A stretch of DNA of 64,000 bases from Candidatus Woesebacteria bacterium GW2011_GWA1_39_21 (lineage in GTDB: Bacteria > Patescibacteriota > Microgenomatia > UBA8517). This document shows, in pieces, positions 17,877 through 43,367 of this stretch. Positions within the stretch are counted from its first letter, which is position 1. Each line of letters starts with the position of its first letter. A model generated the notes under the pieces. The model saw only the letters and a list, made by a program, of their open reading frames with translations. It did no database searches and was not told where the DNA came from. Location: assembly GCA_000993685.1 (NCBI GenBank), contig LBWP01000001.1, positions 9,739-73,738 on the forward strand, read 5' to 3'. Both the position numbers and the translations under genes were made by a program.

Positions 17877-18617
17877 ATGTCGGGCCACTCACATTTTGCA
17901 ACAATTAAAAGGGCCAAGGAGCTTAAGGATTCACAGAAAGGTAAGATCTTTTCTAAACACGCTAGGTCAATTTCGATGGCAGTAAAGGCAGGTGGAGGAA
18001 CCGATCCTACCGCAAATTACAAGCTGCGAATGGCTATCGAAGCTGCGCGGGCCGATAACCTTCCTAAAGAAAATATCGAGAGGGCAATTTCAAAAGCTTC
18101 AACCGAAGCCAGTAATTTAGAAGAATATGTCTACGAAGGTTATGGACCTTTCGGAGTTTCCTTTTTGATTGAAGCAACAACAGATAACAAAAACAGAACT
18201 GCTCAAGAAATTAAAAATATTTTTGAAAGGGGAGGGGGTAGCATGGCCGGTCCAGGTTCGGTATCTTTTAACTTTGAAAGTATAGGGATGATTAAGGTTA
18301 AAAAATCGGAAAGTCCAGAAACTCAACTTCTTGACCTGATTGACTTGGGAATAGACGACTACGAAGAAGTCGGTGATGAGTTGATTTTATACGTTCCTTT
18401 TGATAAGACGGCGCAATTAAAAGATGCGATTTCCTCTAAAGGATATTCTGTGGTTAGTACTCAACTAATTAAAAAAGCGAAAACTTTTTTAGACATCACA
18501 GAGATCGGAAAAGCAAAAAAGATTTTTGATTTGATAAAAAAAATGGAAGAACAAGATGACGTGCAAAATGTTTACACGAATGTTAATGTAAGTGGCGAGT
18601 TGTTGGCCACTTTGTAG
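17877..18617 (+). CDS. yebC: YebC/PmpR-family transcriptional regulator
   Basis: The N-terminus MSGHSHFATIKRAK...KAGGGTDPTANYKLR is diagnostic. Confidence 0.9.
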   Translation: MSGHSHFATIKRAKELKDSQKGKIFSKHARSISMAVKAGGGTDPTANYKLRMAIEAARADNLPKENIERAISKASTEASNLEEYVYEGYGPFGVSFLIEATTDNKNRTAQEIKNIFERGGGSMAGPGSVSFNFESIGMIKVKKSESPETQLLDLIDLGIDDYEEVGDELILYVPFDKTAQLKDAISSKGYSVVSTQLIKKAKTFLDITEIGKAKKIFDLIKKMEEQDDVQNVYTNVNVSGELLATL

Positions 18618-18638
18618 TATGAGAGAATATTTTTCTTT

Positions 18639-19415
18639 ATGGATAAAAGAAAACGCTTCATCATAAGCTCCGCAATTTTAACCGCGACCCTTATTACTGT
18701 ACAATTGTTGGAAAATCAGACATATAAATTTATTTGCATAGCTTTACTGGGAGTACTCTTGGTCATCCTTTTTTGGTGGTCGCTTCGAGAGGGATTAAAA
18801 AGCAAAATTTCATTTTTAATTTTAGTTCTTCCTTTGTACTACTCGATCGGTTCGGCTGTCTTTTGGTTTTTGCTTCCCAAATCGCTGTGGGTAACGACTT
18901 TCGTTTCAATCTTTTATGGCGTGTCGATATATGCGCTTTTTCTTACAGCAAATGTTTACTCGGTTTCATATTTGAAAACAATTGCACTTTATCGCGCCGC
19001 TAAAGGTGTCGGCTTTTTACTTACTTTGATTGCTTTTTTCTTGACTCTAGATGGGATTATTTCTCTAAGACTGTCTTATCTAATAATTGGCCCATTGGTT
19101 TTTGTTCTGACTTTTCCGTTATATCTTCAAGGTTTTTGGACGACTACTTTGGAAAGTAATATGAATCCAAAAGCCGTCAACATGGCATTAGTAGCGTCAC
19201 TATTACAAGCGCAAGTTTCAATTGTGCTGTTTTTTTGGCCGGTTAGTGTAATTGTCGGGTCGCTTTTCTTAACAATATTTTTTTATATCGTAATGGGTTT
19301 GGGACAAAGTGAAATTGAGGGGAGACTTTTTTCACAAACCGTTAGAGAATACCTTATGGTTGGCACGGTTGTGTTTATTGTAATGTTGCTATCTACAAGC
19401 TGGAGCGGATATTAA
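18639..19415 (+). CDS. Polytopic membrane protein, hypothetical
   Basis: A 258-aa ORF with about 8 TM helices. Confidence 0.45.
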   Translation: MDKRKRFIISSAILTATLITVQLLENQTYKFICIALLGVLLVILFWWSLREGLKSKISFLILVLPLYYSIGSAVFWFLLPKSLWVTTFVSIFYGVSIYALFLTANVYSVSYLKTIALYRAAKGVGFLLTLIAFFLTLDGIISLRLSYLIIGPLVFVLTFPLYLQGFWTTTLESNMNPKAVNMALVASLLQAQVSIVLFFWPVSVIVGSLFLTIFFYIVMGLGQSEIEGRLFSQTVREYLMVGTVVFIVMLLSTSWSGY

Positions 19416-19912
19416 AAAACATTTTTTGATTTGTTACGTTTAAAATTATACTGATACACCAAGGGAGGGGAGAGAGAAGAGACAACACTATTTTATTATA
19501 GGCTATTGTTTGAGCGGTACATTTTTCACGGATAATAAAAGTTATTTTCACATTATTATAAGATATGACAATCAATCGAAAATAACCTGAAGATCTTGCT
19601 CGCTTTTTTCTGACGATCACCTTGATAGAAGCTATATGTGATATAGTTTGATATACAAGGTTGTTTCTCTAAAGACGTGACTATCAAACCTAATTGTGGA
19701 TAACTTCATATTTAATTTTGCATAGATTGAGGACTCTTGAGGTAGAGTAAAGTGACTTTGTGTAATTAAACGTGTTGATGGGCTTGTTGTTTGTATTCTA
19801 GTAAGAGGCTTTGTCGGCGGAGAGTGACAGTAGAAATCCCTTACTACTTCTAACATCGGTCGTTATTTTTAGAAAGTGGATAAGTTTGTTAAGAAGAGCA
19901 GAAGGAACCCGC

Positions 19913-19940
19913 GTATATATAGTGTCGCACAATATAACTT
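19913..19940. repeat. Partial copy of the dif-like motif (ATATAGTGTCGCACAATATAAC)
   Basis: It shares ATATAGT..TGTCGCACAAT..ATA with the site at 21071..21103. Confidence 0.5.
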
Positions 19941-20264
19941 TTACGACGTAAATACGCATACATGGGGATAGAGTGTGTTTTTCCCGTCTTTTTCGCAAAG
20001 ATTATTTATTAATCTTTTATAACTTATTATTAAATTTAATTTTCTTCTCTACTTATGGTATGTCCTTCAAATATAAAAACCAAAAATAAGCCGAACAAAA
20101 TTTTAACAACCTTCGTCTCCCCCACTTTTTTATTTGATTTCGTGATATGTGCGGAAAATGCCGTAAATACGGCATATTATGCATAATAGTAAGATGATTA
20201 ATTGGTCGTCTTTAATAAATAACAGGCCTTAAAATCGATTTGGTGAAGCCGCTTTTTTGGCTAA

Positions 20265-21065
20265 TTGTTATTATTAATATTTAATTATAAAATCCAAAAA
20301 AATATAAAAATGAAAGTCGAAAGCTCTAGTTATTCGCATAAAGAAATAGAAATTATCGATAAGCTTACAGAAGTTAATCGCGTATTAAAGAAAAATGGTG
20401 TTTCAACAGATGTTGACAGTACAGATTTGCTTTCTGAAGTTACAGCATTGCGAATCTACAACAAAATTACAAATAGTAATAAAGTGTTATCCGATCTTAA
20501 AGACAGATATATTATGGTTCTTTGGTTCAAAGAGCTTGGTTATAAAGACCCTTTGGCGATGGCTATCAAATGCTGGAATGATCCAAATGAGATGCGTAAT
20601 TATCAGCCGTCTCCAGGTTCAGCTATTTTATCAATGTTTTTAAGCAGGTCGGAGGTAGATCTGCATAGAATTACGGCCAGACCGGGAAGCGACGAAATCG
20701 TTGAATCGACATTAGACTGTTATAAACAGCAGATGCCTTGGGTTGACGCGAGATTAATACATATGCAAAAAGGTAAAAAAATCAGTTCGCAGTACAAATA
20801 CGAAACTGTTCCAAAGTATTCAAAATATCATTTTGACGACGCTCAGGAAGAAACTGAAATATTGGCAAGTATGGGCATAATTTGCATATTATTTCCACAA
20901 CCTTGGAATGAAGGCTATGTTTCAAAACAGGATAATCTGCTTACTATTAATAGAGCTCAATCCAAAGGACTTGCTAATTTGGGTGTAAACAGTTCTGATT
21001 TTAAGAGCCAGCCTAAAATGGTTCAGGCATATTTCGTTTTGGCAGACCATATTTTAGGTAGATGA
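20265..21065 (+). CDS. ORFan hypothetical protein
   Basis: A 266-aa ORF with no recognisable family, preceded by about 850 bp of AT-rich non-coding DNA. The likely start is MKVESSSY at about 20310. Confidence 0.45.
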   Translation: MLLLIFNYKIQKNIKMKVESSSYSHKEIEIIDKLTEVNRVLKKNGVSTDVDSTDLLSEVTALRIYNKITNSNKVLSDLKDRYIMVLWFKELGYKDPLAMAIKCWNDPNEMRNYQPSPGSAILSMFLSRSEVDLHRITARPGSDEIVESTLDCYKQQMPWVDARLIHMQKGKKISSQYKYETVPKYSKYHFDDAQEETEILASMGIICILFPQPWNEGYVSKQDNLLTINRAQSKGLANLGVNSSDFKSQPKMVQAYFVLADHILGR

Positions 21066-21070
21066 AAAAT

Positions 21071-21103
21071 ATAGTAATGTCGCACAATGATATTGACACA
21101 CGC
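21071..21103. promoter_or_regulatory. Candidate dif-like Xer recombination site immediately upstream of xer
   Basis: AATGTCGCACAATGATATTGACACACGCC contains a palindromic core CAAT-GAT-ATTG. It lies 30 bp upstream of the xer start codon. Confidence 0.35.
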
Positions 21104-21130
21104 CTTCTTATATTTTAATATTTAACCAGA

Positions 21131-22087
21131 TTGATGCCTGCCGCCAAAAAATCATCAGAAATAGCCAACGAAGTTGAAAAATTTCTTGAATACCTTGAGG
21201 TCGAGAAGGGTTCCTCTCCCCTAACGATAAGAAATTATAAACATTACCTTAATAGATTTATTAATTGGCTTACAGAAGAGAAAATTAGAATGACTTTGAA
21301 AGATATTAACCCGGAAATTATTAGGCAATTTCGAGTTCACCTCTCAAGACTTCCTGGATACAAGGGACAAGGAACGATGAGCCGCAAAACCCAGGGATAC
21401 CATGCAATTGCCCTACGGTCGTTTTTACGATGGTTGACAAAAAATGATTTTGAGGTGATGGCGGCCGACAAGATAGAACTTCCGAAAATTACCGAGCGGC
21501 AGGTAAAGTTTTTAAATGGTGAACAAGTTGAGCGACTTTTGAACGCGCCGACTCTTTCAAACTTGGCCGGAAAGCGCGATAAGGCAATTCTTGAGCTTTT
21601 GTATTCGACAGGTTTGCGTGTCTCAGAACTTTGCAAGTTAAATCGAGATATGATCAGTCTCGACAGGCGTGAGTTTGGGGTTGTCGGAAAAGGCGGCCGT
21701 GGAAGAGTTGTGTTTTTATCAAGGCGTGCGGCTGATTGGATAGAACAGTATTTACAAGCGCGTCCTGATGATTATGCGCCACTTTTTATCAGACACCAGG
21801 GTGAACCAGATCCGACAACCCCCGATGAAAAAATGCGGCTTTCTGTCCGTTCAATTCAGCGGATGATTAAAAAATATGTCCGTAAGGTTCACTTGCCGGT
21901 TGATGCGACACCGCATGTTATGAGGCATAGTTTTGCGACAGATCTGCTTATGGCCGGTGCTGACATTAGATCGGTTCAGGAGATGTTAGGGCATAAAAAC
22001 ATCCAAACGACGCAAATTTATACTCATGTAACCCACAAGCACCTCAAAGATGTTTACGAAGCGTTTCACGGAAAGGGCGGAAATTAA
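21131..22087 (+). CDS. xerC: Tyrosine recombinase XerC/XerD family
   Basis: An N-terminal SAM-like domain precedes the C-terminal catalytic box RHSFATDLLMAGADIRSVQEMLGHKNIQTTQIYTHV. Confidence 0.85.
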   Translation: MMPAAKKSSEIANEVEKFLEYLEVEKGSSPLTIRNYKHYLNRFINWLTEEKIRMTLKDINPEIIRQFRVHLSRLPGYKGQGTMSRKTQGYHAIALRSFLRWLTKNDFEVMAADKIELPKITERQVKFLNGEQVERLLNAPTLSNLAGKRDKAILELLYSTGLRVSELCKLNRDMISLDRREFGVVGKGGRGRVVFLSRRAADWIEQYLQARPDDYAPLFIRHQGEPDPTTPDEKMRLSVRSIQRMIKKYVRKVHLPVDATPHVMRHSFATDLLMAGADIRSVQEMLGHKNIQTTQIYTHVTHKHLKDVYEAFHGKGGN

Positions 22088-22147
22088 CGTTTGACCCACA
22101 AATATAACAAATAAAATTGACGGCTTTTTGGTAAACCGCCACGGGAT

Positions 22148-24805
22148 TTAATCTGACAGTTTGTTTTTCTCTTTTTCTGGTACTTTTGAGGTCCTGCTTT
22201 CTTCTTCTTGCTCGCCATCTTTGGCCAGTGTGGCGATTGCTGCAACACCGTCAGATTTATCAGAGAAGCGCATCAAAATTACACCCTGCGTTGAACGGCC
22301 CATTTGTGGAATATTTTTAATTGGAAGTTTTATCACCTGTCCAAATTTCGAGGTAATTATAATTTGTTCGATTTTTTCGTTGACGATAACTTCGCCTGTC
22401 AGGTCTCCAGTTTTTGTGTTAACAACAGCCGCTTTGACACCCTTCCCTGCTCTTTTTTGAATGGGAAAAAGATGAAGTGGTGTTCTTTTACCTAGCCCGT
22501 TTTCCGAAACGGTTAAAAGATCTCTAAAAGATTTTTTGCGTTTGTCGTTATGCTCGGCGTGTTTTTCTGGAAAGATTTCCATTCCGATGACACGATCGTT
22601 TTGATCAAGTCTTATTCCACGCATTCCCGATGTCGCTCTTCCCATTGCCCGCGTGTTACTTTCCGGAAAACGAATTGATTTCCCCTTTTTAGTAATTAAT
22701 AGAATGTGGTCGTCGCCAGTTGTTTCTTTGACAGTAACAACTGAGTCATCGGAATCGAGTCGAATAGCGATAATTCCGGATGCTCTAATATTTTTAAATT
22801 CAGCTACTTCCGTCTTTTTAACAATACCCTTTGCAGAAGCAATAACCAGATTTTTCCCAACCTCACTAGTTGGTAAAAACGACATAACCTCTTCACCCTG
22901 TTCGATGTTCAGGATATTTACAATTGCCTGTCCTTTTGCCTGCCTACTCGCCTCCTGGACATCCCACACTTTGGTACCGTAGACCTTCCCTTTATTGGTG
23001 AAGAACAAGAGCGTATCGTGCGTCGAAGCGGAAACTAAATGTGAAATCTCGTCTTCTTCTTTTGTTGTCATTCCAACAACACCCTTACCGCCCCTGCGCT
23101 GTGCTTTGTAGGTGCTTCTTGGAACTCTTTTGATGTAACCAGTCTTGGTAATTGTAACCAGAGTTTCCTCTTTAGGAATCAGGTCTTCTTCTGAAAATTC
23201 GCCGATTTTTTGTTTGTAAATTTTTGTCATTCTTTTATCACCGAATTTTTCCCTTAGAGTTGTAAGCTCATCGGTAATAATGTCAAGGATCTTTTGTGGG
23301 TTTTTCAGAATTGCGATAAGTCTATCGATCAGTTTTTTAATTTCCTCGTATTCCTTTTCGATCTTCTCCCGTTCGAGTGCGGCCAGACGTCGCAGTTGCA
23401 TATCGAGAATTGCCGTTGCCTGAATTTCTGAAAGTTTAAAACGGGTGACGAGATTGTTTTTCGCATCTTCCTGGGTTTTGCTGCCTCTGATGGTTGCGAT
23501 GACCTCATCAAGATTGTCGAGAGCGATTTTTAATCCTTCTAAAATATGAGCTCTTCTTTTTGCTTCCGTCAGCTCAAAAATTGTTCGCCTTGTAATGACT
23601 TTTTGACGGTGTTTAATATACTCAACTAATATTTGTTTGAGATTTAAGGTGTGCGGGACTCCGTCAACAAGCGCAACGAAATTTGCCGGAAAAGACGACT
23701 GCAACTTTGTGTATTTATATAAATTATTGAGCACCGATTTGGGTTTTGCGTCGCGTTTGAGATCGACGACAACGCGCATTCCGTCCTTGTCTGATTCATC
23801 GCGCAAATCGGAGATTCCGACCAACTTTTTCTCTTTAACAAGGTCGGCAATCTTTCTTACCAGTTCTGATTTATTGGCCTGGTATGGGATTTGGCTAATT
23901 AAAATATGCGTTTTTCCGTCTTTGGCCTCCGTTATCTCGGCTACACCACGGACAACGATTCTTCCTCTTCCGGTTGAATAGACTTCTTTTAAGGACTCCC
24001 CGTCATAGATTGTTGCACCGGTTGGAAAGTCTGGCCCGGGGATAAATTTGATTAATTCTTCGATCGTGATATCACTATCGAAACTGATATTTGAAGGTGT
24101 AACATCATCGTTTGATAATTTCTTTTCCTCTCCGGCTGCGACAAGATTAATTTTTTTGATGACAAAATCCGTCTTTTCTTCGACACTGTTTGTGTCGCTA
24201 ACGACATGTCCTTTTTTAATGGTTTCAACAATCCCGTTGACAATTTCACTCAAGTTATGCGGAGGGATTTTTGTCGCCATTCCAACAGCAATTCCTTCTG
24301 ATCCCATTAGTAGTAAGTTAGGAAGAAGTGACGGTAGGAAGACGGGTTCCTTTAAGGTTGTATCAAAATTGTCGATTAACTCGACCGTATCTTTTTCGAT
24401 GTCTTTAAGCATCCATTCGGAGATTTGGGCGAGCTTAACTTCCGTGTAGCGCATTGCTGCGGCGGGATCTCCATCCACAGAGCCAAAGTTTCCTTGTCCT
24501 TTGATTAATGGGTAGCGGAGTGAAAATGTCTGCGCCATACGAACAAGTGCGTCGTAAACCGCAACGTCGCCGTGGGGGTGGTATTTACCCAAAACCTCAC
24601 CGACAACTTTGGCGCTTTTTGTAAAAGCTGAAGAGTGTGTTAAACCCATTTGCTGCATGGCGTATAAAATCCGTCGGTGGACTGGTTTTAATCCGTCGCG
24701 AACATCTGGAAGCGCTCTTTCGACGATTACGCTCATTGCATAATCAACGTATGATTTCGCCAGTTCGTCGGTGATTTCTACAGGTCTAATTTTTCCTATA
24801 TCCAT
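22148..24805 (-). CDS. gyrA: DNA gyrase subunit A
   Basis: It carries the active-site AAMRYTE, the GyrA box QRRGGKG and C-terminal beta-pinwheel repeats. Confidence 0.95.
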
Positions 24806-38179: not shown

Positions 38180-40037
38180 GTTCCCCAGGAGGAAGTGTCG
38201 AAAGGATGGGGTCGGTGAGGATGGATTTCACAAGGAATGACCCGTATAATTCTTCATCCTTATAATAATATTTCATAAAAAGTGCTATATTCTTGTATCC
38301 TATTGAGTAATATCTTTTCATATTTGTAAGACTGAAGCTGTAACCCACAACATCCTTGTAGGAATCATATTCTCCCAAAAGGAAATTATTGTAAATTTCA
38401 TCCTGGGCGGTTACGTAATCTTCTTTTTTGGGTACCGATTCGGCCCCAACAACAAAGTGATACACCAATCCGTGAGGTATTGTGCCCAATTTCTTATCCT
38501 GGTCATTCACGATGACCCTGGGTACAGTTGAATAAATGTTATACCCCCTTCTTATGAGATTGACGATGCAGGAATATAATGTTTCCTGATCGATCGTGTT
38601 TCTGTTTTTAATAAGATAAGTCTTTGCCTGATCGGGGTTCATGGTACCTGATTCTACAAGAAATTTCTCAAAACCGGTGTTTCTTCCGGGGATGGTGATA
38701 TCCGGTCGGAAATTTTCTTCAAGTTGGATATATAGAGTATTGAATGCAAATTCATCGTTATCAACGAATAGGAAACTTTTATTTTCCAATGGCCCCAGTA
38801 CGTCTTTTGCAAGGTTATTGCCGATGTAAATGTCGGATAGATCGGTCTTCGGGTAATTTGCAATGAAATATGATATCGGAACTAAAGCGAATGCGGCCAG
38901 CGTCAATGGATAAAATAAACGGTATAAAGGCCTCCTTTTGATGATTTTATTAAGTAATTTTGTTAATAACAAAATACCGGGACCGGAAAAAAGCAAAAGA
39001 AAAATTACGGAAGGAATGTAAAATCTTTCGATTGTTGAAATGTTAGCAAGGCTTTTGGTTTCAACTTTTGCGTAAAAAATATAAAAAGGACCGATAAAAA
39101 AAAGTGCAGTCAGTAAATAAAATAATAAAAGGCGTCTTTTTTGTTTTAGAAAATAGATTACGCCCAAAACGAAAGCAAAAGGAATAATCGGATTTAAATA
39201 CTCCTTCCAATATATGTAATAAGAATGAAAATCGTTTACAAACATGAATGGTCTGTTCTCCGTATCGATCCATCCATAGTCCTTTCGTAATATCAGATAG
39301 AGTAAATTTTTGGCCGTGACAGCCCGATCCCAGTTAACTATCGGATTTTGTGCTGCAGCTATAGGTATGTAAAGATACGGTAACAGACCCAGGATGAATA
39401 AAAATATGCAAGTCAATATTAATTTTAAATCTTTCAGGATTTTAATGTCTGTAAATAAGACCGAGAGTCCAACTGCAGGAAACATAAGCAAAACTGTCAT
39501 GTTATTTGTGAGCGATAAACCGAGGAAGAAAGACAGCGGGTACAAAAGTCTGTTTTCTTTGCTAATTATAAACTTGATTGTGATAAGTGAGATTAGAAGG
39601 ATAAAAAAAAAGTGGAGGGAAAAGACTTCTGCAACCTCTGCGTATATCCAAAAAGGATAGATAAAAGCAAGAATTAAACTTATAATAATCGATATTATTT
39701 TATTTTTTGTTAGTGTTAGTGAGATTAGATAAGTTAAGATAATGGAGAGCGATGCAAATAATGAAGATATCAATCCGACTCTCCAGGCTACTGTATGTCC
39801 CAATGGAAGTGAGTTAAAGGTAATCCCAAGAAGTATATAAAGTGGATATCCCGAAGGATGTGGAACGCCTTTTGAAATGATCGCTGAAAGAAAGTCTCCC
39901 GAATCGCCAGCAAACACGCCAGGACAAATTCCGTTAACGTATATCAAAAAAGTCGATAAAAACAAAAACAATACAATAAAATGCCCAGACAGAAACTTAA
40001 GAAGAATCTTTGTTTTACTTATTTTTTTTACTACCAT
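38169..40037 (-). CDS. DUF2723/TMEM260-like GT-C-fold membrane glycosyltransferase (putative protein O-glycosyltransferase)
   Basis: The 622-aa protein has more than 12 TM helices. The N-terminal loop GDSGDFLSAI...GVPHPSGYPLYILLG matches the WDSGEF...HPPGYPLY signature of DUF2723/GT117. Confidence 0.55.
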   Translation of the reverse strand: MVVKKISKTKILLKFLSGHFIVLFLFLSTFLIYVNGICPGVFAGDSGDFLSAIISKGVPHPSGYPLYILLGITFNSLPLGHTVAWRVGLISSLFASLSIILTYLISLTLTKNKIISIIISLILAFIYPFWIYAEVAEVFSLHFFFILLISLITIKFIISKENRLLYPLSFFLGLSLTNNMTVLLMFPAVGLSVLFTDIKILKDLKLILTCIFLFILGLLPYLYIPIAAAQNPIVNWDRAVTAKNLLYLILRKDYGWIDTENRPFMFVNDFHSYYIYWKEYLNPIIPFAFVLGVIYFLKQKRRLLLFYLLTALFFIGPFYIFYAKVETKSLANISTIERFYIPSVIFLLLFSGPGILLLTKLLNKIIKRRPLYRLFYPLTLAAFALVPISYFIANYPKTDLSDIYIGNNLAKDVLGPLENKSFLFVDNDEFAFNTLYIQLEENFRPDITIPGRNTGFEKFLVESGTMNPDQAKTYLIKNRNTIDQETLYSCIVNLIRRGYNIYSTVPRVIVNDQDKKLGTIPHGLVYHFVVGAESVPKKEDYVTAQDEIYNNFLLGEYDSYKDVVGYSFSLTNMKRYYSIGYKNIALFMKYYYKDEELYGSFLVKSILTDPILSTLPPGEQNK

Positions 40038-40816
40038 TTCTTAATGAGGAATAGGTTATTAATATATATCGATTTGGAAGAATAGTAGTTTTCTACAAGG
40101 ACGGCTAGATACGATAATAAAAGTAAGGGAATGTATAAAGGTAAAGTCAGAAAGTAGTATAGTTTGTTTTTTTGATTTAATTCAACCAAATAGTTCTCCA
40201 ATAAAGTTTCAATTGCAGATAATAAACCACCTTGTTTTTTATAATAGTGCAGCCGGCAATGGTGGAGTTTGATGAGCCGGTCAAATGTATAACGCGTAAA
40301 CCTGAAATGATCATTCGGTTCTTCATGAAGAGCCCAGAGAAAGGGTGCAGTTATTAATAAGTATCCATTTCTTTTTAATATTCTAACCATTTCATCAAAT
40401 AGTATAAACGGGTCAGTAACATGTTCAAATACCTGGAAAGCACAGACAATATCAAAGGTATTATCCTGGAAAGGGAGCTTTCCAACGAGTTTATAATTTT
40501 CAGGAAAGTATATGTTTGGTTCATCTTTAATATTTACACTTTTATTCGGTGAGAAATTGGGAAAATCAATACCTAGGTATTTTGTATTTTTAAATAAAAA
40601 TTTATATGGTTTTTCTCCGCAACCAACATCCAGTAATTTTCCTTTTAGTTTATATTTTTTAACAACATATCCGATGTCTTTGCGCAAGAAATATCTTTGT
40701 GAAAAATGAGGTATTGTATAAAAAAGAAATTCATCTGTGAGGCTTTTACTCATATAATGTTTGTGATGTAAATAGTTTACAGTTAAAATCAGATTAATGA
40801 AAATAGCATTTTTCAC
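40031..40816 (-). CDS. Class I SAM-dependent methyltransferase
   Basis: Motif I is LLDVGCGEKPY, followed by ILKRNGYLLITAP. Confidence 0.75.
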   Translation of the reverse strand: MKNAIFINLILTVNYLHHKHYMSKSLTDEFLFYTIPHFSQRYFLRKDIGYVVKKYKLKGKLLDVGCGEKPYKFLFKNTKYLGIDFPNFSPNKSVNIKDEPNIYFPENYKLVGKLPFQDNTFDIVCAFQVFEHVTDPFILFDEMVRILKRNGYLLITAPFLWALHEEPNDHFRFTRYTFDRLIKLHHCRLHYYKKQGGLLSAIETLLENYLVELNQKNKLYYFLTLPLYIPLLLLSYLAVLVENYYSSKSIYINNLFLIKKW

Positions 40817-41954
40817 TTATACCAGACTCGAATATGGAGGCGGTGTTGCAAAATACTATATCGAGACGGCCTCAGGTTTAGCGAAAAGATATAAGAATTT
40901 GAAGATCGATATTATTAGTTTTGAAAAAAAGACGTTAAGAAAATTTCTTTTATTATATTTTTTATATTTTTTCGGGAAGCAGGATATGGACCAAAAAGAT
41001 AAGGAAAATATTATTTCGATCAAGAAAAAATTGGGCTTCGCCGGTTACTATCAATACAATTTTAAAAGTTTACTTAAAAAACTTAAAGGTTACGATTTGA
41101 TTTATACGACTAACAATTTATTGGAGGTTATGCTATTTAAATATTTGATTGGTTACCGACATATACCGCCTATTGTTTATGGATTCCACATCCCCATGTA
41201 TTATGAGTTTACCAGTTCACTGCAATCGAAAATTCATAATTTACTATATCGATCGCCATTATATATTAAGGCTCTGAAGGGAGCTAAAGTACTTCATGTG
41301 ATGAATACCTTTGATGAAGATATTATTAAAGATAAGTTTAATATTCATAATGTCAAAAAGATCTATTATGCGTTTAATTTTGATCAATTCGCAAAAGTTG
41401 TCTTTGAATATAAACCTCCTTACAAATGGAATAAACTCCGAACAAATATTTTATGGACAGGAAGGTTGACCGAACAGAAAGGCATAGATAAACTTTTTGA
41501 GATAATCGAAGGTGTTAATGCCGGAAAATGCGGTAAAAAAATTATATGGAATATATTTGGCGACGGTGAGCTTAAAGACAGGGTTCGCGCATTTTCATTG
41601 AAGCATAAAAATGTCAGTTTTTTTGGATACGTGGAAAATCGTTTTATGGCAGACATTATGAACAAATGCGATTTTTTTATTTCAACAAGCAATTGGGAAA
41701 GCTTCCCGTATAATATCTTAGAAGCACAGGCTTTCGGACTCCCTGTTGTTTGTTTTGATATCAGTGGTTGCAATGATATTGTTAAGGATGGGGTAAATGG
41801 ATATCTGGTAACCGACACCGCCGAATTTAAAAAACGGATTAACGATATTGTTATAAAAAATAAGTTTAAAAAAGAGAAGATACGAAATTATATTGTTTCG
41901 CGATTTAATTTCGAGGATTTGTTTTCGAAAATGTATCGATTATTCACAGAATGA
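40797..41954 (+). CDS. Glycosyltransferase family 4 (GT-B, retaining)
   Basis: A C-terminal GT1/GT4 domain is present (GRLTEQKGIDKLFE). The E-x7-E region is FPYNILEAQAFGLPVVCFDISG. Confidence 0.85.
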   Translation: MKIAFFTYTRLEYGGGVAKYYIETASGLAKRYKNLKIDIISFEKKTLRKFLLLYFLYFFGKQDMDQKDKENIISIKKKLGFAGYYQYNFKSLLKKLKGYDLIYTTNNLLEVMLFKYLIGYRHIPPIVYGFHIPMYYEFTSSLQSKIHNLLYRSPLYIKALKGAKVLHVMNTFDEDIIKDKFNIHNVKKIYYAFNFDQFAKVVFEYKPPYKWNKLRTNILWTGRLTEQKGIDKLFEIIEGVNAGKCGKKIIWNIFGDGELKDRVRAFSLKHKNVSFFGYVENRFMADIMNKCDFFISTSNWESFPYNILEAQAFGLPVVCFDISGCNDIVKDGVNGYLVTDTAEFKKRINDIVIKNKFKKEKIRNYIVSRFNFEDLFSKMYRLFTE

Positions 41955-42457
41955 AAAAATATAATTTAGGTTGCGGTAAAAAGTATATCAAAGGTTACAT
42001 CAACGTAGATGTAACACGGTCTGTTAAGGCAGACCTCTATTTCAATTTAAATAAATTCCCTTACCCAATTAAAAAGAAATCGGCTGACGAGGTTTTGATG
42101 GATAACGTTCTTGAACACTTGGATGATGTAGTATTGGTTATGGAAGAAATATATCGGATTCTAAAGCCAGGTGGTATTGTTAAAATTTATTTGCCTTATG
42201 CGAAGTCGGACGGTGCTTTGCAGGACCCTACACATAAACATCTGTTTACAGAAAAAAGCATGGATTATTTTAGACAAGATGATAAATATAATTATTATAC
42301 AAATGCAAAATTTCGTATATTGGTGAGTAAACCTTTTAACGCAAATAAAACACTCTTAAGTAAAATGCGAGTCTTTATCCCATTCAAACCTGTTCTCAAA
42401 TATTTCTTATTAAATATTTACGATGGTTTATATTTCGAAATGAAAGCGGTTAAGTAA
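41951..42457 (+). CDS. Class I SAM-dependent methyltransferase (Methyltransf_11-like)
   Basis: KKYNLGCGKKYIKGYINVDV...LEHLDD...ILKPGGIV. Confidence 0.75.
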   Translation: MKKYNLGCGKKYIKGYINVDVTRSVKADLYFNLNKFPYPIKKKSADEVLMDNVLEHLDDVVLVMEEIYRILKPGGIVKIYLPYAKSDGALQDPTHKHLFTEKSMDYFRQDDKYNYYTNAKFRILVSKPFNANKTLLSKMRVFIPFKPVLKYFLLNIYDGLYFEMKAVK

Positions 42458-43367
42458 TTGTCGATTTTGGGTTTTTTGAAGAGGTAACAATCTTCCACAC
42501 ACTATGGTCACGAAGTTTGTAAGTTACATCAAGATAACCAAAAATTCTCGCAATAATTTCCAGAATAACAGTAAATGCAGAAAAGATAAGTTCTTTGGCG
42601 TTGAAATTTAGTGTTGATAAAAATACGGGTAATATTAAAAAGTTAGAGAAAGTTATCACCTCATAGCCGTAATGGAGTTTTGTTTCATAATGCCCGGCAA
42701 AGATTCTTCGCCTTTGGCTTAAGAGTTCCCTGATCGTTTTCGGACCGCTATTGTAAACAATGGCTTTCTCTTCATAAATAACTTTATAATCCTGGAGTTT
42801 GATTAACGGCTCAATACTTGCTTCGTCAACGGCGGTATTTGGGGGAATCCGTTTGAAAACCTTTTTAAATGCTATCAACTCACCTACTTTTGGCCGTTCC
42901 GGAAATTTGAGATTAACAAGATGATGAAGTTTCCACTTTAGTTGGTTTGCGAAACCGCAAAATGTGTCCGGATTATCTGTTGGAATCACTTTGCCGCCGA
43001 CCATTCCGACACTTTTGTTCTTTAATTTATTCAAGAGTAGGAAATAGCATTTTTTATCTAATATCGTGTCAGCGCTTTGGAGTATCAGATATTTAGATTT
43101 TGCATATTTGATGAACAAGTTGACTGCCTTGGCTTTTCCTTCTCTGTTTACCTGAATAATCAGTCTGATTTTTTTATTTTTCTTTTTAAGCTTCTTGATA
43201 ATACTTACGGTATTATCCGTGCACCCCGACGCAATAATTAAAATCTCTCTAATCGAAAATTCGCTACCCAGCTCTTGTTTAGTAATTGATTTTATTAAAT
43301 TAGTAATATTTTCTTCTTCATTATAGGCGCAAATACCGATACTGAAATGAATTTTTACTTTTTCCAT
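42450..43367 (-). CDS. Glycosyltransferase family 2 (GT-A)
   Basis: FSIGICAYNEEENI...ASGCTDNT plus a DxD-like QSADTILD. Confidence 0.85.
   Translation of the reverse strand: MEKVKIHFSIGICAYNEEENITNLIKSITKQELGSEFSIREILIIASGCTDNTVSIIKKLKKKNKKIRLIIQVNREGKAKAVNLFIKYAKSKYLILQSADTILDKKCYFLLLNKLKNKSVGMVGGKVIPTDNPDTFCGFANQLKWKLHHLVNLKFPERPKVGELIAFKKVFKRIPPNTAVDEASIEPLIKLQDYKVIYEEKAIVYNSGPKTIRELLSQRRRIFAGHYETKLHYGYEVITFSNFLILPVFLSTLNFNAKELIFSAFTVILEIIARIFGYLDVTYKLRDHSVWKIVTSSKNPKSTIT

What the first reader, a model, noticed from the sequence alone, without database searches (positions are those of the whole stretch)
19416..21130. dif-like site adjacent to the single Xer recombinase plus a partial copy 1.15 kb upstream bracketing an AT-rich ORFan: an IMEX-like arrangement
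Thirty bp upstream of xer lies AATGTCGCACAATGATATTGACACACGCC. It has a CAAT-GAT-ATTG palindromic core and arms loosely resembling dif (GGTGCGCATAA / TGTCGCACAAT). That mirrors the adjacent placement of difSL and xerS or difH and xerH in other bacteria. A second copy of the left arm with flanking bases, ATATAGTGTCGCACAATATAAC, lies at 19913..19940. The two copies bracket an 850-bp, unusually AT-rich, ORF-poor stretch and a 266-aa ORFan (20265..21065). Elements that integrate at dif by hijacking Xer (IMEXs) are flanked in exactly this way, by a full site plus a degenerate one.
Basis: partly seen in the sequence, partly recalled or inferred. Interest (0 to 1): 0.55.

Follow-up and report, generated by a model that had tools for sequence, protein, structure and literature searches.

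The report
CPR dif site with Xer operator
The repeat is real, but it does not mark an inserted mobile element: the upstream copy is most likely the chromosome-unlinking (dif) site shared by the whole Patescibacteria/CPR group, apparently undescribed, and the copy beside the recombinase gene is a half-site built into that gene's promoter.

Summary
The window is Candidatus Woesebacteria GW2011_GWA1_39_21. TGTCGCACAAT does occur exactly twice, at 19923 and 21078.

- **Upstream copy (19922-19949), GTGTCGCACAA-TATAAC-TTTTACGACGT.** This is a complete 11-6-11 dif-type site. The same arms with a variable central hexamer occur once per locus in at least 120 Patescibacteria genomes. The site lies 0.33-1.9 kb upstream of xer in 41 of 45 Woesebacteria loci retrieved through Xer alone. 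A polar motif, RGGGRAG, converges exactly on it, regardless of gene strand. In Saccharibacteria, Zot-carrying prophages sit at this site.
- **xer-proximal copy.** This is only the left arm, placed 2 or 5 nt from a TTGACA-N17-TAnnnT promoter in 61 of 75 xer loci. It is also present in relatives with no gene between site and xer, so it is not an integration junction. It is probably a Xer operator.
- **The "ORFan".** It is a vertically inherited HAD/NT5C-like phosphatase.

IMEX is rejected.

One anomaly remains: third-codon GC skew does not switch at the site in this lineage. I found no published description of a CPR dif in the held library.

The parts
19922..19949 (+). Candidate dif site: GT-GTCGCACAA | TATAAC | TTTTACGAC-GT. 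It has 11-bp imperfect inverted arms, a 6-bp central region, and a conserved core at 19924-19947.
   Evidence: - The 24 core bases are identical in four relatives whose flanks differ.
- The same arms with a variable centre occur in at least 120 Patescibacteria genomes and 60 viral contigs.
- It is the only match in the window at up to 3 mismatches.
- It was found independently upstream of xer in 41 of 45 loci.
21079..21088 (+). Half-site GTCGCACAA+T. It copies the left arm of the site plus the first central base, and lies 5 nt upstream of the -35 hexamer. It is the presumed Xer operator.
   Evidence: GTCGYACAA followed by 2 or 5 nt and then TTGACW lies upstream of xer in 61 of 75 Xer-anchored loci, including loci with no intervening gene.
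21093..21121 (+). xer promoter: TTGACA (21093-21098), 17-nt spacer, TAATAT (21116-21121).
   Evidence: It is the best promoter-like match in 19300-21250, with 10 of 12 positions. TTGACW-N16-18-TAnnnT is present in 60 of the 61 loci that have the half-site.
21134..22087 (+). xer: a 317-aa tyrosine recombinase of the Xer family.
   Evidence: - Pfam Phage_integrase E = 9e-43, plus an N-terminal SAM-like domain.
- NCBIfam scores: XerC 257 bits and XerD 248 bits, both below their cut-offs. Archaeal XerA scores 234 bits against a cut-off of 220, so it passes. XerS scores 133 bits against a cut-off of 267, so it fails.
20310..21065 (+). The 251-aa 'ORFan': a divergent HAD-superfamily, NT5C-like phosphatase.
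   Evidence: - Homologues occupy the same position.
- D34, D36, T134, K163 and D177 are invariant.
- A profile of the family hits only HAD phosphatases in the PDB, for example 2i33 at E = 4e-4 and 3bwv, a 5'(3')-deoxyribonucleotidase, at E = 8e-4.
- The homologue in L104 hits PF06941 NT5C at E = 7.5e-5.
19950..20309 (.). Conserved non-coding module to the right of the site. It includes AAGATGATTAATTGGTCGTCTTT (20191-20213) and GGCCTTAAAATCGATTTGGTGAAGCC (20225-20250). Function unknown.
   Evidence: The blocks are conserved in relatives both with and without the phosphatase gene. There is no Rfam match and no consensus fold.
19416..19921 (.). Conserved non-coding region to the left of the site. 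It holds DnaA-box-like 9-mers at 19695-19703 (perfect, minus strand) and 19875-19883 (one mismatch).
   Evidence: One perfect box lies 100-300 nt to the left of the site in 34 of about 46 Woesebacteria loci.
18228..22991 (.). Inner zone of converging polar motif RGGGRAG. Copies on the + strand are at 18228, 19318 and 19466. Copies on the - strand are at 20117, 21216, 22442 and 22985.
   Evidence: In the window the counts are 5+/1- to the left of the site and 0+/8- from the site to 33.1 kb (Fisher p = 0.003).
18639..19415 (+). DUF5656 membrane protein: the conserved left neighbour of the site in Microgenomates.

Best explanation
**What it is.** Bases 19922-19949 are the chromosome's Xer recombination (dif-type) site. 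Two 11-bp imperfect inverted arms each bind a monomer of the neighbouring Xer recombinase, and strand exchange occurs across the 6-bp centre. This resolves chromosome dimers. A G-rich polar motif, RGGGRAG, points at the site from both sides. It presumably steers an FtsK-type translocase toward the site, as KOPS does in E. coli.

**The second copy.** The copy at 21079-21088 is a single left arm placed directly upstream of the -35 box of the xer promoter. Xer binding there most likely feeds back on its own transcription.

**The DNA between them.** This is a conserved non-coding module plus a HAD/NT5C-like phosphatase gene. It is ordinary, vertically inherited chromosome, not an integrated element.

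**Shown here:**
- The architecture, conservation and single-copy status of the site.
- Its linkage to xer.
- Convergence of the polar motif on it.
- The half-site and promoter arrangement.
- The absence of any mobile-element signature.

**Inferred:**
- That Xer binds and recombines the site.
- That RGGGRAG acts through FtsK.
- That the half-site regulates xer.
For: **Architecture.** The logic follows established dif criteria: 11-bp arms, 6-bp spacer, conserved, single, intergenic, and at the inversion of skewed words (PMC2958812). The consensus is A-Y-GTCGCACAA-N6-TTTTACGAC-R-T. The central hexamer varies (TATATC 48, TATAAC 13, TGTATA 9, and others) and the flanks are unconserved.

**Distribution.**
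- At least 120 species-level Patescibacteria genomes carry it, one match per locus and all from different assemblies.
- It occurs once in the 64-kb window.
- It is intergenic in about 110 of 120 loci.

**Test independent of the motif.** 80 loci were fetched through the Xer protein. 41 of the 45 with at least 2 kb upstream have the site at 3 or fewer arm mismatches, 331-1916 nt upstream of xer and in the same orientation. Apart from three single-locus left-arm variants, variation falls at the symmetry-related position 5 of each arm: GTCG[C/T]ACAA and TTTT[A/G]CGAC.

**Polarity.**
- AGGGGAG points toward versus away from the site 209:21.
- It is not a Shine-Dalgarno effect: only 65 of 509 copies lie near a start codon.
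- The bias holds inside genes that point away from the site (43:7), in co-oriented genes (299:37) and in intergenic DNA (168:35).
- In the independent Xer-anchored set the counts are 214+/25- to the left and 39+/197- to the right, switching within the 1-kb bins on either side of the site.
- In the window the counts are 5+/1- then 0+/8-.

**Gene orientation.** Genes converge on the site: 326+/62- to the left and 51+/281- to the right in the 120 genome loci.

**Exploitation by mobile elements.**
- 60 IMG/VR contigs carry the site and none has a Xer homologue.
- 21 of them carry a Zot-like gene next to it.
- In L155, L168 and L182 a 5.3-5.4-kb Zot-bearing segment lies between a copy with a perfect left arm, the same central hexamer and a degenerate right arm, and a full site.

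**Half-site as operator.**
Against: - **GC skew.** Third-codon GC skew of the top strand is positive on both sides of the site in the window (52 of 59 genes). The same holds in Woesebacteria-type loci (0.16 left, 0.10-0.13 right) and in xer-linked genome loci. The mutational skew therefore does not switch here as it does at most dif sites.
- **Weakening polarity.** Beyond 33 kb in the window the polar motif is only 7-/4+.
- **No biochemistry.** No binding or recombination has been shown.
- **Biased sample.** The 120-genome set was retrieved with the arms fixed, so by itself it cannot show that the arms are conserved.
- **Copy number.** Single copy per whole genome was not verified.
- **Prophage comparison.** Between L168 and L031, about 380 bp to the left of the site is duplicated. 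Homologous integration therefore cannot be excluded.
- **Autoregulation.** This is inferred from position alone.
Confidence: 0.72

Rival explanations
1. The segment between the two copies (about 19950-21075) is an element integrated at dif by host Xer (an IMEX). A full site and a degenerate site would mark its ends.
For: - Two directly repeated copies of the left arm bracket 1.13 kb of AT-rich DNA and one gene.
- The gene content between site and xer differs among Microgenomates lineages.
- Candidate Zot-bearing insertions at this site, with the junction pattern expected of IMEXs, occur in Saccharibacteria.
Against: - Loci with nothing between site and xer still have both copies.
- The central hexamers differ, and the degenerate copy's 'right arm' is a conserved -35 box.
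- The gene is a HAD phosphatase kept at this position in relatives down to about 20% identity.
- No replication, morphogenesis or integrase genes are present.
Confidence: 0.04
2. The interval between the full site and the promoter half-site is an old capture point. Genes would be inserted or exchanged there by Xer-mediated recombination of small circles, in the manner of the pdif modules of Acinetobacter. The HAD gene would be a domesticated cassette.
For: Between the same flanks (DUF5656 and xer), different lineages carry HAD/NT5C-like, HD 5'-deoxynucleotidase, glycosyltransferase plus radical SAM, trehalase or GNAT genes, or nothing.
Against: - No second full site or hybrid site flanks any of these genes.
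- The conserved module to the right of the site stays attached to the site, and the insertions lie beyond it.
- Gene turnover over class-level divergence needs no special mechanism.
Confidence: 0.08
3. The 24-28-bp element is not a recombination site. It would instead bind another conserved protein, or form a hairpin, tied to replication. For example, it could be part of an origin or a fork-arrest region. Its nearness to xer would be only synteny.
For: - A conserved DnaA-box 9-mer and AT-rich DNA lie beside it.
- gyrA, gyrB and dnaB are nearby.
- GC3 skew does not flip at the site.
Against: - There is only one perfect box. The window shows no enrichment of boxes.
- Genes and the polar motif converge on the site rather than diverge.
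- A copy of one arm sits in the xer promoter.
- The central 6 bp vary freely while the arms are fixed, and phages lacking recombinases carry the site.
- Complementarity in the flanks is barely above the shuffled control.
Confidence: 0.08

Closest known systems
XerCD/dif of E. coli and B. subtilis, with KOPS/SRS polar motifs
   Same: - A 28-bp site with 11-bp imperfect inverted arms and a 6-bp centre, single and intergenic.
- Some CPR genomes even use the E. coli central hexamer TGTATA.
- A G-rich 7-8-mer converges on the site independently of gene strand.
- Filamentous-phage-like elements lacking integrases sit at it.
   Different: - Only one xer gene is seen. It scores about equally to XerC and XerD and passes neither model.
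- The arm sequences are different: GTCGYACAA and TTTTRCGAC.
- The polar word is RGGGRAG.
- In Microgenomates the site is linked to xer.
- The mutational GC3 skew does not invert at the site.
Single-recombinase systems XerS/difSL (streptococci and lactococci; PMC1914069) and XerH/difH (Helicobacter; PMC3325230)
   Same: The recombinase gene and its site are neighbours, with the site upstream of the gene.
   Different: - Here the site has the canonical 11-6-11 layout, and the recombinase is of ordinary Xer length.
- The XerS model scores far below its cut-off (133 bits against 267).
- Linkage holds only in Microgenomates (21 of the 120 genome loci), with 0.33-3.7 kb between site and xer.
- There is an additional half-site in the xer promoter.
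Archaeal XerA/dif (PMC2958812)
   Same: - It is a single recombinase, and the window's Xer passes NCBI's XerA model (234 bits against a cut-off of 220).
- The site has 11-6-11 architecture.
- The site lies at the inversion point of short polar words.
   Different: In archaea dif is not next to xerA. Here the organism is bacterial. No evidence bears on whether FtsK is needed.
IMEXs such as CTXphi, TLCphi and XacF1 (PMC5666396, PMC9226527)
   Same: Saccharibacteria contigs show a 5.3-5.4-kb Zot-bearing segment between a degenerate copy and a full copy of the site. The two copies share the same central hexamer, and no recombinase gene is present.
   Different: The window's pair of copies does not have this structure. 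Even in the L168/L031 comparison, about 380 bp beside the site is duplicated, so the integration route is unproven.

Membership tests
dif (chromosomal Xer recombination site) | Two roughly 11-bp imperfect inverted arms separated by a 6-bp (6-8) central region | tested here: met
   The site reads GTGTCGCACAA | TATAAC | TTTTACGACGT. Within the 9-bp conserved core the arms match at 7 of 9 positions. The logo extends to A-Y on the left and R-T on the right.
dif (chromosomal Xer recombination site) | Arms conserved among related genomes while the centre and flanks drift | tested here: met
   The core is 24 of 24 identical in four relatives with divergent flanks. In 41 Xer-anchored loci the arms vary at position 5 of each arm, apart from three single-locus left-arm variants, and eight different central hexamers occur.
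dif (chromosomal Xer recombination site) | One copy per chromosome | tested here: inconclusive
   There is one copy in the 64-kb window at up to 3 mismatches. There is one stretch per assembly among 120 genomes.
dif (chromosomal Xer recombination site) | Lies where chromosome polarity (KOPS-type words, gene orientation) converges | tested here: met
   RGGGRAG flips at the site in the window, in 120 genome loci and in 50 independent loci, and does so regardless of gene strand. Genes converge on the site.
dif (chromosomal Xer recombination site) | Coincides with the GC-skew switch, i.e. the replication terminus. This is typical of known dif sites. It is a positional correlate rather than part of the mechanism. 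| tested here: not met
   Top-strand GC3 skew is positive on both sides of the site across the window and in Woesebacteria-type loci. The plain sliding-window skew only mirrors gene orientation.
dif (chromosomal Xer recombination site) | A cognate Xer recombinase binds the arms and exchanges strands in the centre | not testable with these tools
   A Xer-family gene is adjacent. Binding and catalysis need biochemistry.
IMEX (integrative mobile element exploiting Xer) | The element is bounded by two dif-like sites that are recombination products, with a shared central region and one host arm each | tested here: not met
   The centres are TATAAC and TGATAT. The second copy has only a left arm, and its other side is the xer -35 box.
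IMEX (integrative mobile element exploiting Xer) | Unoccupied relatives carry a single dif joining the two flanks | tested here: not met
   Loci with the site 331-542 nt upstream of xer and no gene in between still have the full site plus the half-site.
IMEX (integrative mobile element exploiting Xer) | Cargo includes replication or morphogenesis genes of a phage or plasmid | tested here: not met
   The only gene is a HAD/NT5C-like phosphatase. The DNA motif does occur on viral contigs, but I did not search this protein itself against the viral collection or PHROGs.
XerS/difSL-type or XerH/difH-type linked single-recombinase module | A single xer gene in the genome, with its site immediately beside it | tested here: inconclusive
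   There is one xer in the window, with the site 1.18 kb upstream. Linkage is seen in Microgenomates only. The whole-genome xer count is not available. The XerS model is not passed.
oriC | A cluster of DnaA boxes with an unwinding element, at a skew switch from negative to positive | tested here: not met
   19416-20310 holds one perfect box and one box with one mismatch. The maximum for any 900-nt stretch of the window is 3, and there is no enrichment. There is no skew switch, and genes and the polar motif converge rather than diverge.

The most novel reading that the evidence does not exclude
In Woesebacteria and other Microgenomates, the dimer-resolution site may not be at the replication terminus. 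The strand-specific mutational skew (GC3) runs through the site unchanged for at least 20 kb on one side and 44 kb on the other. Meanwhile the translocase-type polar motif and a conserved DnaA-box 9-mer are centred on the site.

That would mean one of two things. Either segregation polarity is uncoupled from replication termination in this lineage, or these small chromosomes replicate very asymmetrically or in one direction, with origin and dif side by side.
Probability: 0.15. Interest if true: 0.85.

Novelty: new variant of a known kind. Interest (0 to 1): 0.62.

Why it matters
- **A missing piece for a large group.** Patescibacteria/CPR make up a large share of bacterial diversity, and in the held library I found no description of their chromosome dimer-resolution site.
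- **A practical landmark.** A 28-bp site plus a 7-nt polar word marks the segregation terminus in fragmentary metagenome-assembled genomes. That is useful for checking assemblies and for replication-rate estimates.
- **An attachment site for mobile elements.** It points to the attachment site of integrase-less phages of Saccharibacteria.
- **A genetic tool.** It offers dif-flanked marker excision for the CPR species that can now be manipulated genetically.
- **Two new biological leads.** The half-site in the xer promoter suggests that Xer controls its own synthesis, which I am not aware of having been reported for known Xer systems. The failure of GC skew to switch at the site raises a testable question about how these very small genomes replicate.

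Tried and rejected
- **Plain GC skew.** Sliding-window GC skew looked terminus-like but only reflected gene orientation. I replaced it with third-codon skew per gene.
- **Rfam.** Rfam at gathering and permissive thresholds, on the window and on 18 loci, found nothing near the site. There are no tRNA or tmRNA genes nearby.
- **RNA folding.** RNAalifold on the conserved module right of the site gave no consensus fold on either strand.
- **Hairpin test.** Complementarity in the flanks of the site exceeded shuffled partners by only 2-3 SD at four positions. This is compatible with relatedness alone.
- **oriC idea.** TTWTNCACA is not enriched in the window, and only one conserved box lies near the site.
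- **Structure prediction.** The AlphaFold2 model of the 251-aa protein from 7 sequences had mean pLDDT 48.7, so I did not use it or search folds with it.
- **Family searches on the 251-aa protein.** Pfam and NCBIfam on the protein alone gave nothing. A 7-sequence profile against the PDB also gave nothing. Only the wider 13-sequence profile gave HAD hits.
- **Shine-Dalgarno explanation.** This explanation for the polar motif was rejected.
- **Literature.** Searches for a CPR dif, for the motif strings and for inoviruses of Saccharibacteria found no prior description of the site.
- **Position on near-complete contigs.** The site's position on these contigs could not be interpreted without knowing the origin positions.
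Full report
The exact 11-mer TGTCGCACAAT occurs only at 19923 and 21078 in the 64 kb. The stretch 19416-20309 has no credible ORF and 31.5% GC, against 39.6% for the window. The neighbours are YebC and a DUF5656 membrane protein on the left. On the right are a Xer-family recombinase, then gyrA.

**Relatives reverse the roles of the two copies.** The 'ORFan' has six homologues at about 50% identity. In the three homologue loci I looked up (L011, L012, L013) the gene lies directly upstream of xer, and L011, the only one reaching far enough left, shows the full order YebC, DUF5656, about 900 nt non-coding, this gene, xer. In those loci the upstream copy is embedded in 24 invariant bases, GTCGCACAATATAACTTTTACGAC, while the sequence around it differs. 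This 24-mer is an imperfect palindrome of 9+6+9. With the weakly conserved outer positions (A-Y on the left, R-T on the right) it becomes the classical 11-6-11 layout of dif.

The xer-proximal copy is different. Only GTCGCACAAT is conserved. It is followed, after a variable spacer, by TTGACA, 17 nt, then TAnnnT, which is a sigma-70-type promoter.

**Distribution.**
Each has one match.
- The titled records are almost all Patescibacteria (Saccharibacteria, Paceibacterota, Shapiro-, Gottesman-, Levy-, Pace-, Nomura-, Morani-, Campbell- and Yonath-bacteria). All come from different assemblies.
- A handful are titled Gammaproteobacteria, Pseudomonadales or Bdellovibrionales but carry the Microgenomates gene order. 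One Mycobacterium hit inside an ORF looks like chance.
- The central hexamer varies (TATATC 48, TATAAC 13, TATACC 13, TGTATA 9, TAATAC 9, and others) and the flanks are unrelated.
- The site is intergenic in about 110 of the 120 loci.

**A motif-independent test.** That scan fixed the arms, so I retrieved 80 further loci through the Xer protein alone (60-76% identity).
- Of the 45 with at least 2 kb upstream, 41 have the site at 3 or fewer arm mismatches. It lies 331-1916 nt upstream of xer, always in the same orientation.
- Apart from three single-locus left-arm variants, the arms vary only at the symmetry-related fifth position: GTCG[C/T]ACAA and TTTT[A/G]CGAC.
- This is what a single protein reading both arms would allow.
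- It also shows that the first scan under-sampled Microgenomates, where TTTTGCGAC is the commoner right arm.

**Polarity.**
- In the 120 genome loci, genes converge on the site: 326+/62- on the left and 51+/281- on the right.
- An unbiased k-mer screen for words pointing at the site put AGGGGAG first, at 209 toward and 21 away. Relatives such as GGGGAGTG (49:1) were also far above generic purine-rich words, which run at about 2-3:1.
- The word is not a ribosome-binding site: only 65 of 509 copies precede a start codon.
- Its polarity is kept inside genes that point away from the site (43:7), as in co-oriented genes (299:37) and intergenic DNA (168:35).
- In the independent Xer-anchored set the counts are 214+/25- to the left and 39+/197- to the right. 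The switch falls between the two 1-kb bins flanking the site (95:8, then 8:58). This holds even though xer and the phosphatase gene on the right are on the plus strand.
- In the window itself the counts are 5+/1- to the left and 0+/8- from the site to 33 kb (Fisher p = 0.003).
- This is the behaviour of KOPS/SRS-type words around dif. It is also the criterion used to validate archaeal dif (PMC2958812).

**Mobile elements elsewhere use the site.**
- Sixty IMG/VR contigs carry it, and none encodes a detectable Xer homologue in the fetched stretch.
- Some are tailed phages. L139 has a terminase large subunit (E = 1e-65), and L170 and L176 have primase and helicase genes.
- Twenty-one carry a Zot-like morphogenesis ATPase just left of the site, and most of these also keep the usual Saccharibacteria right-hand neighbour beyond it.
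- In L155, L168 and L182 a 5.3-5.4-kb Zot-bearing segment lies between two copies in direct orientation. One has a perfect left arm, the same central hexamer and a degenerate right arm. The other is a full site.
- Relative to the closely related contig L031, L168 has exactly this insertion. However, about 380 bp left of the site is duplicated at both ends, so Xer-mediated and homologous integration cannot be separated.

**The half-site.**
- In 61 of 75 Xer-anchored loci, GTCGYACAA lies 2 nt (36 loci) or 5 nt (19 loci) from TTGACW. In 60 of those 61, TAnnnT follows at 16-18 nt.
- In the window this is 21079-21088, then TTGACA at 21093 and TAATAT ending at 21121. It is the best promoter-like match in the region.
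- The element is present whether or not a gene separates the full site from xer.
- I infer that Xer binds it and modulates its own promoter. This step is not shown.

**Why the IMEX reading fails here.**
1. 'Empty' relatives keep both copies.
2. The central hexamers differ (TATAAC and TGATAT), whereas the candidate prophage junctions share theirs.
3. An integration product downstream of an element should keep the host right arm. Here the downstream copy has a perfect left arm and a promoter instead of a right arm.
4. The gene is a HAD-superfamily phosphatase.
   - D34, D36, T134, K163 and D177 are invariant across 13 homologues.
   - Its profile matches only HAD phosphatases in the PDB, including a 5'(3')-deoxyribonucleotidase.
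   - One homologue hits PF06941 NT5C.
   - Homologues as distant as about 20% identity occupy the same interval.
5. Other lineages have other metabolic genes there, or none. That is ordinary turnover. The conserved non-coding module right of the site stays with the site.

**The anomaly.** Third-codon GC skew, expressed on the top strand, is positive for 52 of 59 genes across the whole window, irrespective of gene strand. The same holds on both sides of the site in Woesebacteria-type loci (0.16 left, 0.10-0.13 right) and in xer-linked genome loci. The replication-associated skew therefore does not switch at the site in this lineage, although the polar motif does. In the other CPR classes GC3 skew is too weak to tell. 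I could not locate origins on the long contigs. This keeps me from calling the site a textbook dif, and it is the basis of the 'novel case'.

**Other unexplained features around the site.**
- A single perfect DnaA-box 9-mer points at the site. In Woesebacteria it lies 100-300 nt to the left (34 of about 46 loci; window 19695-19703). In Saccharibacteria it lies 219-285 nt to the right.
- A short hairpin-like element, AAGATGATTAATTGGTCGTCTTT, has a stem that covaries. It is found near the site in both phyla.
- The block GGCCTTAAAATCGATTTGGTGAAGCC is conserved.
- None of these matches Rfam.

**Comparison with known systems and verdict.**
- The site works like dif in every respect testable in silico except coincidence with the GC-skew switch.
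- The recombinase is a generic Xer. It passes only NCBI's archaeal XerA model and is clearly not XerS.
- Linkage of site and gene recalls XerS/difSL and XerH/difH, but it is restricted to Microgenomates.
- I found no description of a CPR dif, of this motif or of its polar word in the held literature. That library is incomplete, so 'undescribed' is provisional.

Noticed in passing
window 1-64000; also L194-L273 and xer-linked loci among L014-L133: Third-codon GC skew of the top strand is positive for 52 of 59 genes, whatever their strand. It does not switch at the dif-like site or anywhere else in the window. The same holds in Woesebacteria-type relatives.
   Followed up: partly
window 19695-19703 and 19875-19883; +219 to +285 from the site in Saccharibacteria loci such as L026, L050, L090, L106: A single conserved DnaA-box 9-mer (TTATCCACA) lies next to the site in two CPR phyla. 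It is oriented so that 5'-TGTGGATAA-3' points at the site. It is not part of a box cluster.
   Followed up: partly
window 20191-20213 and 20225-20250: Two conserved non-coding elements lie to the right of the site. One is a short hairpin-like AAGATGATT...CGTCTTT with covarying stem bases, also found about 20 nt from the site in Saccharibacteria. The other is GGCCTTAAAATCGATTTGGTGAAGCC, which contains the palindrome AAATCGATTT. There is no Rfam match and no consensus fold.
   Followed up: partly
L155 1647-6982; L168 2623-8059; L182 3581-9036; also L135, L148, L163, L172 and 14 further IMG/VR contigs: Inovirus-like prophages carrying a Zot-like ATPase sit at the dif-like site of Saccharibacteria. 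In three cases they are bounded by a degenerate copy and a full copy of the site. About 380 bp left of the site is duplicated in L168 relative to L031.
   Followed up: partly
L139 7329; L161 4578; L170 1440; L176 13168; L149 71: Contigs with tailed-phage-type genes (terminase in L139; primase in L170; helicase in L176) carry the site without a recognisable recombinase nearby. Several have CCCCTGTT/AACAGGGG repeats flanking it.
   Followed up: no
L001 10353-12979 and L005 10716-13347, compared with window 22148-24805: In two strains with an identical Xer protein, gyrA is called as two separate genes (360+481 aa and 417+385 aa) instead of one 885-aa gene. In L004 the genes beyond gyrA are entirely different, which indicates strain-level rearrangement just right of xer.
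   Followed up: no
L025, L040, L041, L043-L045, L048, L062, L088, L104, L105, L107, L109, L131 (record titles): These MAGs are titled Gammaproteobacteria, Pseudomonadales or Bdellovibrionales, yet they carry the Microgenomates order DUF5656, site, xer. Their Xer is 48-67% identical to the window's. The taxonomic labels look wrong.
   Followed up: no
L107 4422-5045 compared with window 20310-21065: Two unrelated folds with the same predicted activity occupy the site-xer interval in different lineages. One is an HD-domain YfbR-like 5'-deoxynucleotidase, the other a HAD/NT5C-like phosphatase.
   Followed up: no
window 39000-43000: GC drops to 31-33% over a block of glycosyltransferase and TMEM260-like genes. 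This may be a cell-envelope island.
   Followed up: no
Left of the site in about 20 Saccharibacteria loci (e.g. L071 5021-7735): The conserved left neighbour of the site in Saccharibacteria is an approximately 900-aa membrane ATPase of the TrwB/TraG/HerA (FtsK-related) type.
   Followed up: no
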